Assembly: GCF_006345805.1 (NCBI RefSeq)
Contig: NW_021833653.1
Coordinates: forward strand, 1-62,954
Direction of reading: 5' to 3'
Source of the DNA: Octopus sinensis
Lineage: Eukaryota
DNA: 62,954 bases
Below the pieces are notes generated by a model that was not told the DNA's origin, searched no databases, and worked only from the letters and a program-made list of their open reading frames with translations. Positions within the stretch are counted from its first letter, which is position 1; each line of letters starts with the position of its first letter. Below, one piece after another: positions 2,047 to 48,192 of the stretch. Both the position numbers and the translations under genes were made by a program.

Positions 2047-2255
2047 TGTGACCTCGTGTGTACCGTTGGCGATGTTTTTCCCTCCGTCTTCCCTTCTTTG
2101 GATCTTTCCTTTTCCTATGTTTCTGACGAAGAGCTCCGCTCGAAACGTTAAATCCTCCTTCTTTCTTTCCTTTCCTGAGCGTCCAATAATACTATACTTG
2201 TTCCTCGTCCTCGCGTTGTTGTGTTTCTCTTTGTGTTTTCATGTTTAGATTAACT
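2047..2255 (+). mobile_element. H1 ~210-bp non-coding element with a hammerhead motif (PLE pseudo-LTR-like), copy 1
   Basis: Four homologous copies share both ends and are flanked by TA/CA microsatellites. Confidence 0.75.
2119..2153 (+). ncRNA. Minimal type-I hammerhead ribozyme motif
   Basis: GTTT-CTGACGA-A-GAGC(TCC)GCTC-GAAA-CG-TT-AAAT: conserved core, stem II hairpin, palindromic ACGT stem III, stem I gttt/aaat. Confidence 0.75.
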
Positions 2256-3077
2256 TTATATATACACACATACATTCATACGTTCTCACACATACACACA
2301 CACATATATATATATATATATACACACATATTTATCTATATGATTTAGGTGTGTATACATATGCTCAAAATCTATTTCTGTCTATTATGTATTATTCGTT
2401 CTGTGTGTGTATATGTATGTGTTTGTGTGTGCACGCGTATATGAGTGTATACGAAGAAAACAAGAAACAGAAATGTTTAAGGAGCTAAGCGACTAGACTC
2501 TTCATGTATCGATATTGAACACTAATTGAGAAGGTTTTCCTTGCCAAAACTTTCAATGATGGAAATTTGATTCTCGTTATATTCATGTTATGCTATTAGT
2601 GCGAGATGTTATTTCGCATTTTCACATTCATGTATATATACACATATATATATATATATACATATATATATAGATATATATATATATATATATATAAACA
2701 CACACACACACACACACCTATACCCACAGATATATATATATATATATGATATATTATATATATATATATATATATATATATAGATATATATATACATATA
2801 TATATATATCACCTCGTTGTGATTAACACAAGGATAAATTTGTCGTCTGTGAGTATGTAATCCCTCCTCATATCTCTGGAAATTCATATGTGCACTATGG
2901 ATTAGGTCACCTTCTCTGTGATGCTATTAAAACTTTTTTAAAATTCTGTGATAAGACTGTACATCATCTTTAAAGAACTTTAATGAAATTTGGAAATCTG
3001 TTTATGGTTACTTAATTATCTACATTACTTCATGAGTATAGCCTCAACCACTAGGATGTCTAGAGAACTCACATGTA

Positions 3078-3166
3078 TTTTAGCTGATGAGTACGGGACA
3101 CGTTTAATGCTGTAATTTTCACAACTTTTATAAAGCCTGTCCTTGTATGAAACGATTGTAATAAAA
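3078..3166 (+). ncRNA. Type-I hammerhead ribozyme motif with a long stem II loop
   Basis: tttta-g-CTGATGA-GTACGGGACA...TGTCCTTGTAT-GAAA-C(GATT)G-TA-a-taaaa, inside a ~390-bp segment between two TA arrays. Confidence 0.65.
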
Positions 3167-4463
3167 ACCTATCCATTCTTGTTGCTTCTTTCTCGCGTAT
3201 ATATATATATAATATATATATATATAATATATATGTATATATATTATATATTTATATGTATTTATGCATAGATGCTATTTGCAATGTGCGTGCACCTCAT
3301 TAGTCGAGCGCATTTAAACAAAAATTTCTTGAAAATTCAGTTGGATCGGAAGCAATTATCGTTGTGTGTGTATATATGTGTGCATATGTTATGCAAATAT
3401 TATATATATGAAATATATATATATATATATATATAATATAAACAATGTATAAATCTATATTTTATAATGATATAATATATATAATATATATATATATATT
3501 ATATATATATATATATAATATATATATATATATATACAGGCGTGTGCGCGCGTGTATGTGCATTTAAATTTGTATATTTCAGATAGTGATCGCCAGAGAC
3601 AGTCACAACGAATAATTTTGCATCTGAAATTGTGTTGTCGAATTACAGTAATCTTCCTCACGAATCTTTAATCACTATTTCTAGTAAGAATTATATCTGT
3701 GTGTGTCCGTGCATGTGTATATGCGCTTGTCTATGTCTCTACGGCGTATATAATTGTGTACAGCTCAACGTATGTGCTTATATATTTACAGATATATATA
3801 TAGATCTCCGCTTACAAATAAATATTCGTGTTAAATCCTGTCGCAAACATACACGCATATACACGAAATTTTCCTTACAAATAAACATTTCAACATCCTC
3901 GCAGGCACACACACGCGCACATACACACAAACTCAAAAGAAATAGAAATACACACGATGCTGATATATAGATATTTTATAAATACCTTCAGATTAATATA
4001 TGAATCAGCATATATTTCTTACTAAAATGTAAAAATTTAAGATCTACTCTTCTTTATATTTAATATACAAATATTTTTATATGAACATATTTGTTTAATA
4101 TTTGCAAACACATGCAATGCGTGTATATACATATATGTATATAACAATTTTAGACCATAGAACGCAGAGTAGATAAACGAAAGACTTTAAAAGAGTTAAA
4201 TCGAAGGAAATTAAAGATCCTGAAGAAACTGCACCAGTATTATAGAAGGGCTGCAATTGTAACGGTTGCTAAGCAATGCAGGAGAAACATGTGTACGTCT
4301 GTGTAAAGCTGTATATACATATATTATATGTATGTATATATATATGTGTATGTATATTTATATATATATATATATAAATAAATGTGTGTGTGTGTGAGTG
4401 TGTATATATATCTATCTATATATATATATATATATCTGTAAATGTAATATTTCGGTAGCCAAA

Positions 4464-44975: not shown

Positions 44976-45662
44976 GGCGCAGGAGTGGCTGTGTGGTAAG
45001 TAGCTTGTTTACCAACCACATGGTTCCGGGTTCTACTATAGCCTTGGACCGATCAAAGCCTTGTGAGTGGATTTGGTAGACGGAAACTGAAAGAAGCCTG
45101 TCGTATATATATATATATGTATGTGTGTGTGTTTGTGTGTCTGTTTTGTCCCCCTAGCATTGCTTGACAACCGATGCTGGTGTGTTTATGTCCCCGTCAC
45201 TTAGAGGTTCGGCAAAAGAGTCCGATAGAATAAGTACTGGGATTACAAAGAATAAGTCCCGTTGTCGTGTTGCTCGATTAAAGGCGGTGCTCCAGCATGG
45301 CTGCAGTCAAATGACTGAAACAAGTAAAAACAGTAAAGAGAAAAAGAGTATATGTATAGGCGCAAGAGTGGCTGTGTGGTAAAGTAGCTTGCTTACAAAC
45401 CTCATTGTTCCGGGTTCATTCCTCACTGCTTGGCACCTTGGCCAGGTGTCTTCCACTGTAGCCTAGGGCCGACCAAAGCCTTATATTTTCAATATATCGC
45501 TTGACGACCAATGCTGGTGTGCTTACAACCCCATAACATAGCGGTTCGGCAAACGATATCGATAGAATAAGTAGCAGGCTTACAAAGAATAACTCCTGGG
45601 GTCGATTTGCTCGACTAAAGGCGGAGTCAAATGACTAAGACAAGTAAAAGAGTAAAAGAGTA
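44976..45662 (+). mobile_element. Two tandem SINE A copies with internal deletions
   Basis: Heads at 44976 and 45358. Confidence 0.85.
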
Positions 45663-47987
45663 TACCTGCTAAACTGGCATATACGTCGTGGTCATGAACA
45701 AGGCACACCCCAGTTTTTGTCAGTTAAAAAACAGTACAGTGTAAATATGGTGTATATATATATATATATATATATGTAAGTATATACATTTTTATACCTC
45801 ATTCTCTCTCTCTCTCTCACTTTCCTTCTTCCTCTCGGGCACACATACACACACTGTATATATATATGTATAAATATATATATATATGTACGCACACATC
45901 TCTGCATTTATCTATCTATATATATATATTATATATATATTATTATATATATATATATATATATATATATATATATATTAATCAATATCAGGGTAGCAAA
46001 AAATTCAAGAGAAATTTTTCGCCACCAGCGGTCCAGTGAGAAAGAAAAATTAGCCAACAGACTATATAATATACATTCAACAATATTAAGGAATGGCGTT
46101 GATAGGCTATTCGACCCACTAGAAGGAGCAGCTAAACTCAAACCGCTAAATAGTTGTAATTCAGAAACCAAAGGAAAATAAAAACAGTGGGTTGAATGGC
46201 CTATCAAGGCCATACCTTAATATTGTTGAAAGTATATATATATATATATATATATATACATACATACATACATACATACATACATACATCATTCTCTCTC
46301 TCTCTCTCTCTCACTTTCCATCTTCCTCTCGGGCACACATACACACACTATAATATATATATATAATATATATGTATGTATGTATAAACATATATATATA
46401 TATGTACGCACACATGCATTTATCTACATATATATTAATTATATATATATATATATATTATACATAAATACCTACATACATACATACATACATACATACA
46501 TACATACATATATACATAGACATATGCAGAAAATATTGCTGCTATATACTGAACAGTAGCAAATATACGAGGAAAATATAATTCTGTTCTCTCCTATGAG
46601 AAAATAAAGTTGTGCCGGGGGAAACTACTGCAGAAACGCCGCATTACTATCAACTTACAAAAAACTGAAAAAGTTACTACACAATACCAATGAACAAGTA
46701 TATGCAATAAAGTGTGAAAGGACTAGCATGACCCCCACATTACATTTATAATGGTTTCTGGGCGTAATTAAAACTTGCCACTCAACGATTTTGCTCATTG
46801 TCTCTTCTTTTCATTGTCAATATATCAGTCAATGCCCTCTCAAACACACACACACACACACACACACACACACACACACACACACACACATATATATATA
46901 TATATATATATATATGTATAGGAAAAGTCGTATATATATATAGATAGATAGATAGATAGATAGATAGATAGATAGATAGATAGATAGATGGATGGATAGA
47001 TGGATAGATGGATAGATAGATGGAGAGATAGATAGATACACTGATGGATAGATATACAAACATGTATGTAGGTGTGTCCCTATTAGAGCGTATACGTACG
47101 TACGTACCTACCTACTTCTCTCTTTCTCTCTCTCTCTCTCTCTGTATATATAGATACGGACACATACAAAAACTCACACTCACACACACACGCACGTACA
47201 CACATATATATTTACACACATTCACTCACAGACACTTACACGCATACATATATATGTACATATTCGTCAGAATTTCCTAATTTTAAATTAATGTTTCCAT
47301 GCGTTACACCTGCTAGCGAAACAAGGAGTATTTGTTAAATCATATATCTATGTATATATATATATATATATGTGTGTGTGTGTGTGTGTGTGTGTGTGTG
47401 TGTGTATGTAAGTATCTACTGATGTATCAGTGTAAGTATACATGTGTACATATACCACAGAGTGTGTATTTGGAGTAAGTGAATAAAATTTAACATACGA
47501 TTCGAGTCTCCAGCGGACGTGTGCTTTCAACGGTTTGTCTGCGCTAAGCACTACATCAAAGCGACAACGCAAACTTCAACACCTATTTAATGTATTATAT
47601 TGTTTCTACATAAAATGGAAAAAAATTTCTAACAACTGTTTGTAAAGTGAAAAGCTAAGCTGCACTCGTACAAAAACCTTCACCCACCACGTCCCTTCAC
47701 AAATCTCAAACAAACCCATTTCAGCAAGAAGAATAAAATCACTAGAACTGGTAGTACACCTACTAACGCAATTCCGACGGCAAAGACATAGAGGAGAAGG
47801 AAGGAATGCTAAGCCACACTATAGAAATAATGAGTTTCTCTTCCTCAGCTGCCTAATCAGTTATCTTTATCGTTTCGACACTAGAGCATATAAAATGCAT
47901 CGTGTATATGACTACACACCTATACACACACACACACACAAACATATATATAAATATTTATATGTACGTGCATGTGTGTGTATATAT

Positions 47988-48192
47988 AGTTAATCCAAAC
48001 AAGAAAGCACAAAAACAAAAACAACAACGCGAGGACGTGGAACAAATATAGTTTTATTGGACGCTCAGGAAAGAAGGAGAGTTTAACGTTTCGAGCGGGG
48101 CTCTTCGTCGGAAACATAGGAGAAGGAAAGATCCAGAGAAGGGAAGACAGAGGGAAAAAAATCGCGAACGGTACACACGCGGTCACATTTTG
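47988..48192 (-). mobile_element. H1 element copy 4 (hammerhead 48081-48115, core CCGACGA)
   Basis: Reverse complement reads gtttCCGACGAaGAGCcccGCTCGAAAcgttaaac; same ends as the other H1 copies. Confidence 0.75.

What the first reader, a model, noticed from the sequence alone, without database searches (positions are those of the whole stretch)
2047..48192. H1: a fixed-length ~210-bp non-coding element built around a minimal hammerhead, four copies
Seen: copies at 2047-2255(+), 11448-11656(-), 11911-12142(+) and 47988-48192(-) all begin near tgtgacc(g/t)cg and end near ggattaact before (TA)n. They have no ORF, no tRNA head and no TIRs. Each carries GTTT-C(T/C)GACGA-A-GAGC(3 nt)GCTC-GAAA-CGTT-AAA(C/T). 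Established: PLE pseudo-LTRs carry minimal type-I hammerheads with a palindromic stem III that can fold as dimers. Inference: shared 5' ends argue against random truncation and for a discrete non-autonomous retroelement (retrozyme-like or solo-pLTR unit) mobilised by a microsatellite-targeting PLE.
Basis: partly seen in the sequence, partly recalled or inferred. Interest (0 to 1): 0.75.

Follow-up and report, generated by a model that had tools for sequence, protein, structure and literature searches.

The report
Solo terminal repeats of Penelope retrotransposon
The four short repeats are the end piece (pseudo-LTR) of a Penelope-like jumping gene, present in thousands of copies and carrying a known type of predicted self-cutting RNA motif; their unusually constant length likely records where the element's RNA starts and where its enzyme begins copying.

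Summary
The four copies and the minimal hammerhead motif are real (83-91% identical), but copy 2 starts 35 bp further 5' than stated. H1 is not a stand-alone element. It is the pseudo-LTR of a Neptune/Nematis-type Penelope-like retrotransposon (pLTR, 5' body, RT plus GIY-YIG ORF, CA-rich 3' UTR, pLTR) that inserts into (TA)n. Full-length copies flanked by H1 exist, and a sister subfamily has an open 949-aa ORF. The shared 5' end is also real: 63 of 90 position-sampled copies end 70-86 nt upstream of the hammerhead core, and only 3 run beyond -130. Sister subfamilies leak far more (11 of 30; 17 of 30). Short and ORF-linked copies interleave on one ladder-like tree, so the short units are products of the master lineage, not a separate retrozyme or SINE clade. 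Only 1 of 90 copies starts at the predicted cut site. Likely mechanism (inferred): reverse transcription primed at the pLTR-body junction runs to the RNA's 5' end. Younger subfamilies fixed a U4C core change. The scan has noted other hammerhead repeats in this genome; a sequence look-up found no note on this unit. Known kind, new member.

The parts
2047..2255 (+). Copy 1: solo pLTR, older subfamily A, 5' end at about -76 from hammerhead C3, flanked by (TA/CA)n
2119..2153 (+). Minimal type-I hammerhead motif of copy 1: stem I GUUU/AAAU, core CUGACGA+A, stem II GAGC/GCUC, GAAA, CG, GUU; predicted cut after 2149
   Evidence: descriptor as in PMC4209133
11448..11691 (-). Copy 2: subfamily A pLTR that runs about 30 nt past the usual 5' wall (to -114) into the parent's 3' UTR; includes the TCATTC site and the 7-bp hairpin; core C3 at 11577
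11911..12142 (+). Copy 3: solo pLTR, late subfamily B, U4C core (C3 at 12015), internal 16-bp tandem expansion; head-to-head with copy 2 but 84% identical and of another subfamily, so likely an independent insertion
47988..48192 (-). Copy 4: solo pLTR, subfamily B, U4C core (C3 at 48111), 5' end at -81, inserted in (TA)n/(CA)n

Best explanation
H1 is the pseudo-LTR of a Penelope-like retrotransposon with a reverse transcriptase and C-terminal GIY-YIG endonuclease that inserts into (TA)n, and the ~210-bp copies are likely solo-pLTR cDNAs made by that element's own enzyme. Shown: H1 ends the 3' UTR of ORF-bearing copies and directly precedes the 5' body; short copies share subfamily variants with long copies; 5' ends pile up against a wall at -83 to -85. 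Inferred: transcription starts inside the pLTR near the wall (TCATTC, initiator-like in A and early B). The endonuclease nicks (TA)n, and reverse transcription is primed internally at the pLTR-body junction (AACT(T/A)TATAT). Copying runs about 210 nt to the RNA's 5' end, and the cDNA is joined to the target by microhomology, which trims many ends back to ATGTG. Priming at the 3' pLTR gives the rarer long, staggered copies. The hammerhead is kept under selection on the master lineage but is likely not cut in the RNA that is copied.
For: 14 of 20 loci chosen by the endonuclease have H1 0.5-1.9 kb downstream on the same strand. L131 is a partial tandem EN-UTR-H1-body-RT-EN. L353 is H1-body-ORF-UTR-H1-(TA)n. 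Sister copies L343 and L344 have 1008 open codons; L343 gives 949 aa from Met with weak RVT_1 and GIY-YIG hits, and the search returned 838 homologues at E<=1e-20, most of the 120 listed carrying RVT_1. 5' ends: 63 of 90 at -70 to -86, 21 at -83 to -85, 3 at -87 to -92, 3 beyond -130. Earlier TA/AT microhomology sites at +57 to +72 caught only 4 of 90. In mini-elements, where the junction partner is body sequence and not (TA)n, 6 of 21 junctions still fall at -82 to -87. Lengths are bimodal in all subfamilies: in C, 10 of the 11 copies that pass -130 also pass -426. Tree: 26 short/long label changes, 0% of bootstrap trees with one clade. Hammerhead differs at 4 of 35 sites between A and D against 64 of 160 elsewhere, p=0.0014. 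Precedent: internal RT initiation just past the pLTR-ORF junction, AT-rich nicking and hammerhead-independent insertion in anole Poseidon (PMC11167929); TSS or Inr-like motif inside pLTRs (PMC8557442; PMC3846280).
Against: No RNA 5'-end data exist here, so the start site is inferred only. The initiator consensus (TCAKTY) is recalled, and late B copies read TCTTTC yet still end near the wall. A 7-bp hairpin (-9.4 kcal/mol) covers the same place in A and early B and is absent in C and D, which are much leakier. Upstream pLTRs of full-length copies often extend past the wall: D copies reach -127 to -433, and 4 of 21 A/B body-linked pLTRs pass -86, which needs read-through RNA or a template jump. 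No solo copy with a short body-derived 'tail' was found outside the body-selected set. Labels are more clustered than shuffles (26 vs 41 changes), partly because long copies were found with an A-type query, and the B polytomy is unresolved. Leakiness also follows subfamily age.
Confidence: 0.6

Rival explanations
1. Short copies are ordinary 3'-primed, 5'-truncated insertions. They stop at one place because a stem-loop arrests or releases the RT and the first good (TA)n/(TG)n microhomology (ATGTG) lies there; long copies are also lost with age.
For: The hairpin spans -88 to -68 in A and early B, weakens in late B (-5 to -7 kcal/mol) and is absent in C and D. Copies passing -130: 3 of 80 (A/B), 11 of 23 (C), 17 of 27 (D), p=2e-6 and 3e-10. 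61 of 90 5' flanks are alternating microsatellite. AT/TA sites are sparse between -145 and -97.
Against: A template hairpin should stop RT at its 3' foot (about -68), but most ends lie at -74 to -85, after the 3' arm is already copied. C and D have no hairpin yet keep a hot zone at the homologous place. Better microhomology at +57 to +72 is rarely used. The wall also appears in mini-element junctions with no (TA)n partner.
Confidence: 0.22
2. Solo pLTRs carry their own internal promoter and re-amplify as a SINE-like non-autonomous element, borrowing the PLE enzyme.
For: Short copies outnumber long ones about 20 to 1 in A/B. A solo that starts at the wall would keep any internal promoter and its (TA)n priming site. 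Much of subfamily B is an unresolved polytomy of short copies.
Against: No large supported short-only clade; short haplotypes are matched by ORF-linked copies at each rung, e.g. S_L298 and L353. Short B copies are about as close to long B (0.079) as to each other (0.070) and far from long A (0.171).
Confidence: 0.13
3. H1 is a retrozyme: hammerhead cleavage of multimeric RNA releases a ~210-nt monomer that circularises and is reverse transcribed.
For: The motif is a recognisable minimal hammerhead with palindromic ACGU and is conserved across subfamilies. Mini-elements with two direct hammerheads some hundreds of nt apart exist.
Against: Unit ends (-84, about +130) do not match the cut site (+27). 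1 of 90 copies starts at the cut. Only 2 of 90 have a direct second copy within 700 bp, separated by microsatellite. The commonest core is U4C, reported to lower activity considerably in vitro (PMC3088659).
Confidence: 0.05

Closest known systems
EN+ Penelope-like elements, Neptune/Nematis type (PMC8557442; passages seen)
   Same: Single ORF with RT then GIY-YIG, CX4CxxC linker, pLTRs from partial tandems, heavy 5' truncation, (TA)n targeting, hammerhead in the pLTR
   Different: 1.1-3 kb CA-rich 3' UTR; solo pLTRs with a sharp 5' wall dominate subfamilies A/B; Neptune versus Nematis not resolved by a tree
[quoted passage not shown]
   Same: Type I, no real helix III, extra nucleotide between 9 and 10.1, G10.1-C11.1, palindromic 15.2-16.2, mostly dispersed single motifs attributed to truncated PLEs
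   Different: 4-bp stem II with 3-nt loop; GUU cut triplet; U4C fixed in subfamilies B, C, D; stem I has a U-U mismatch in D
Poseidon of Anolis carolinensis, PAc (Frangieh et al. 2024, PMC11167929; parts 1-2 of 4 read)
   Same: Fixed 3' end at the pLTR-body junction, AT-rich target, no ends at the hammerhead cut site
   Different: PAc primes without homology at two sites and leaves a 30-40 bp tail; here one 3' end with TA microhomology and no tail class seen; the pLTR here ends about 300 nt before the Met
Metazoan non-LTR retrozymes (PMC7229834, search listing only; bioRxiv 10.64898/2026.07.22.740005, part 1 of 5 read)
   Same: Small, non-coding, type I hammerhead, related to PLE pLTRs
   Different: Retrozymes are tandem arrays with a hammerhead in each unit; H1 is dispersed, almost always single, and colinear with an autonomous parent
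Solo pLTRs of Adineta vaga Penelope (PMC3846280; passages seen)
   Same: About 200-bp pLTR, Inr-like motif, palindrome at the 5' end, solo copies, microhomology 5' joins
   Different: There, few solos ascribed to recombination or deletion; here roughly 20,000 copies with ends that point to reverse transcription

Membership tests
EN+ Penelope-like element | Single ORF with PLE-type RT followed by GIY-YIG endonuclease | tested here: met
   L343 949 aa: RVT_1 E=0.0018, GIY-YIG E=0.018, both below Pfam cut-offs; YIDD, DKG and LYCIKC..YVGQT motifs read; H1-type copies seen have broken frames (L353, L131)
EN+ Penelope-like element | pLTRs formed by partial tandem, flanking the ORF | tested here: met
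   L131, L353, L343, L344, L345, L348
Neptune/Nematis clades | CX2-5CxxC linker upstream of GIY-YIG plus Cys/His (CCHH) residues in the EN | tested here: met
   CSRSRCNTC linker; CIKCNLC, EH and HF in the EN; feature definition from PMC8557442
Neptune/Nematis clades | RT phylogeny places it in Neptune rather than Nematis | not tested
   No named reference proteins were held; hits carry no clade names
Minimal type-I hammerhead (PLE) | Conserved core CUGANGA, GAAA, NUH | tested here: inconclusive
   Met in subfamily A (copies 1, 2); U4C in B, C, D (copies 3, 4), the more abundant form
Minimal type-I hammerhead (PLE) | Stems I and II pair, with covariation | tested here: inconclusive
   Both stems pair in A, B, C. 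No compensatory change within the family beyond single copies; related families in the genome show GUUU/AAAC to UCUUU/AAAGA and a different stem II (one example each); D has a stem I mismatch
Minimal type-I hammerhead (PLE) | Self-cleavage as a dimer | not testable with these tools
   Predicted lowest-energy monomer and dimer folds are not the active fold; needs a cleavage assay
Non-LTR retrozyme | Tandem arrays with a hammerhead in consecutive units | tested here: not met
   2 of 90 with a direct second copy within 700 bp
Non-LTR retrozyme | Monomer bounded by ribozyme cut sites; circular RNA | tested here: not met
   1 of 90 5' ends at the cut site; circular RNA itself not testable
SINE-like non-autonomous element | Own lineage with variants private to short copies | tested here: not met
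   26 label changes; 0% of 200 bootstrap trees with one clade; weak resolution in B

The most novel reading that the evidence does not exclude
About 20,000 solo pLTRs are the genomic record of a 'strong-stop' step of Penelope-like transposition: internal priming at the 5' pLTR copies RNA only to its cap, so the insertions map the element's transcription start site in vivo. Template jumps from that point into the nearby 5' body create two-hammerhead mini-elements, caught at the stage from which retrozymes arise. The master lineage kept the hammerhead while fixing a U4C change that would damp cleavage.
Probability: 0.4. Interest if true: 0.55.

Novelty: new member of a known kind. Interest (0 to 1): 0.32.

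Why it matters
How PLEs build pLTRs and what their hammerheads do is still open. This family offers thousands of natural products with one fixed 3' end, a sharp 5' wall, sister subfamilies with different short-to-long ratios, and an intact 949-aa sister ORF to express. That makes the internal-priming model of Frangieh et al. 2024 testable in a second clade. As a kind of element it is ordinary: dispersed minimal hammerheads from PLE ends have been in print since 2014.

Tried and rejected
Rfam: microsatellite-driven miRNA hits only, no hammerhead model hit seen. tRNA head: none. Pfam on the first EN fragment: nothing. Copies 2 and 3 as one inverted-pLTR insertion: rejected, different subfamilies, 84% identity, 217 bp of unrelated DNA between them. 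Target-site duplications: only microsatellite matches, uninformative. RNA evidence: no RNA holder listed on record; four guessed-RNA contig sets cover the unit but cannot show starts, strand or level, and showed no joint at the cut site; no weight given either way. Tail class: none found outside body-selected loci. The first genome search used the whole unit as query and is biased to full-length copies, so it was not used for end counts. Literature: searches found no description of this family or of a fixed-length solo-pLTR class; the library lacks most subscription papers and Repbase/Dfam were not searchable, so the family may already have a repeat-library name. No supplements were read. 'Octopus' in the searches is my recalled guess from genome size and repeat types and comes from no call.
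Full report
Observation. The four copies align at 83-91% identity, and each holds the stated motif, with core C3 at 2123(+), 11577(-), 12015(+) and 48111(-). Positions below are counted from C3. Copy 2 really begins at 11691, at -114; copy 3 carries a 16-bp tandem expansion. The window is the whole contig C10124 of a 2.72-Gb genome. Exact pattern counts are 3609 (CCGACGA form), 1432 (CTGACGA form) and 6401 (3' 22-mer), with 0 for reversed controls. From the overlaps (18 of 60 and 20 of 90) I estimate about 20,000 copies; this is rough and probably low.

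Finding the parent. Searching with the 3' part only showed copies running further 5'. Walking upstream led through a CA-rich low-complexity region to the end of a GIY-YIG ORF and on to a PLE reverse transcriptase. I fetched 20 of the 30 endonuclease loci at 10 kb; 14 of the 20 have H1 0.5-1.9 kb downstream on the same strand. L131 is a partial tandem in which H1 directly precedes the 5' body and ORF. L353 has H1 at both ends of a frame-broken ORF. A protein search found two sister copies with 1008 open codons. L343 gives 949 aa from Met, with RVT_1 and GIY-YIG hits below Pfam cut-offs and 838 homologues at E<=1e-20 among 7988 scored. The CX4CxxC linker marks Neptune or Nematis (PMC8557442, passages); I built no tree against named references. 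So H1 is a pLTR.

Are the 5' ends fixed? I took 90 of the first 92 matches of the 3' 22-mer along contig C1, leaving out two that lay beside a match already taken. Ends: 3 beyond -130, 3 at -87 to -92, 63 at -70 to -86, 11 at -55 to -69, 10 shorter. Twenty-one sit at -83 to -85. One (L326, read by eye) starts at the predicted cut. 73 of 90 end in GGATTAACT plus (TA)n, and 61 of 90 have a microsatellite 5' flank. A second, overlapping sample of 60, minus 9 subfamily C copies, gave 37 of 51 in the same zone. The exact-match sampling favours younger copies. In sister subfamilies, 11 of 30 C copies and 17 of 30 D copies pass -130 (the D sample includes both pLTRs of two full elements). Among copies reaching -55 the contrast with A/B is 3 of 80 against 11 of 23 and 17 of 27 (p=2e-6, 3e-10). 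C and D still have a looser hot zone at the homologous ATGTG.

Separate lineage? A tree of 173 units (191 collected, exact duplicates and N-bearing rows removed; at least one locus, L303/L179, is present twice) is a ladder from A through B to C and D. Short and long copies interleave: 26 label changes, none of 200 bootstrap trees with one clade, at least 5 changes forced by well-supported branches. Shuffles give 41, so labels are clustered, partly because many long copies were found with an A-type query. The bootstrap had not converged and B is largely unresolved. Mean divergence from the subfamily majority is 5.6% in A and 3.9% in B. Only 2 of 90 copies have a direct neighbour within 700 bp. 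This rejects a retrozyme array and argues against, without excluding, SINE-like re-amplification.

Mechanism. Established: a Poseidon PLE nicks AT-rich DNA and starts reverse transcription inside its RNA just past the pLTR-ORF junction; hammerhead mutants insert normally, the ribozyme needs the protein, and no reads end at the cut site (PMC11167929, parts 1-2 of 4). PLE start sites and Inr-like motifs lie in pLTRs (PMC8557442; PMC3846280 passages). Inferred here: priming at the 5' pLTR-body junction copies about 210 nt to the RNA's 5' end and yields the solo class, while priming at the 3' pLTR yields the long class. This accounts for the fixed 3' end, the one-sided wall, the bimodal lengths, the lockstep with the master, and the wall's reappearance in 6 of 21 mini-element junctions. 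Against it: no RNA ends were seen; the TCATTC match to the recalled initiator consensus is lost in late B; a -9.4 kcal/mol hairpin overlaps the wall and its loss parallels leakiness; age parallels it too; and upstream pLTRs can pass the wall.

Hammerhead. It fits the minimal type-I motif of PMC4209133 (parts 1-2 of 4), which cleaved only weakly and only as multimers in vitro. Between A and D it differs at 4 of 35 sites against 64 of 160 elsewhere (p=0.0014; D is one copy), which indicates selection. Yet B, C and D fixed U4C, a natural variant said to lower activity considerably in vitro while still supporting viroid infectivity (PMC3088659, passage). Predicted lowest-energy folds are not the active fold. 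Cleavage is untested.

Novelty and verdict. Dispersed minimal hammerheads from PLE ends and solo pLTRs are in print. My searches found no account of this family or of a fixed-length solo class; repeat libraries and supplements were not seen. The scan's notes list other hammerhead repeats in this genome and none by sequence for this unit. New member of a known kind; interest 0.32.

Noticed in passing
window 5071-5292(+) and 6364-6590(-); L355, L356, L357: A second hammerhead-pLTR family (stem II GAGC-GTAG-GCTC, stem I UCUUU/AAAGA, altered core position 6) ending in (TA)n. Its parent is a PLE with 74% RT identity and an 835-codon open frame. It may be the family of scan note e1-9559914.
   Followed up: partly
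window about 18455-18500(-); L352:1436: A third minimal hammerhead (CUGAUGA, stem II GGCUG/CAGCC, stem I GACAC/GUGUU) in a repeat that continues into (AAT)n/(TTA)n tracts; parent not sought.
   Followed up: no
L213-L240: 21 of 30 loci found with the 5' body are mini-elements: partial pLTR, 167-466 nt of body, then H1. Several hold two direct hammerheads; four share a junction near -44 to -50.
   Followed up: partly
L343, L344 (G000:C19 and C1): Young sister subfamily D with intact 1008-codon frames and near-identical pLTRs; 1206 exact matches of its hammerhead 27-mer; GUC cut triplet but a U-U mismatch in stem I.
   Followed up: partly
L353:7768-8320; L140; L142; L346; L291: H1 copies insert into the (TA)n left by earlier copies, giving nested direct and tail-to-tail clusters.
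   Followed up: no
window 36294-36849: Three tandem 184-bp copies of a SINE-like repeat that is also dispersed in the window.
   Followed up: no
window 51391-51424: Short interstitial (TTAGGG)n tract, about 6 units.
   Followed up: no
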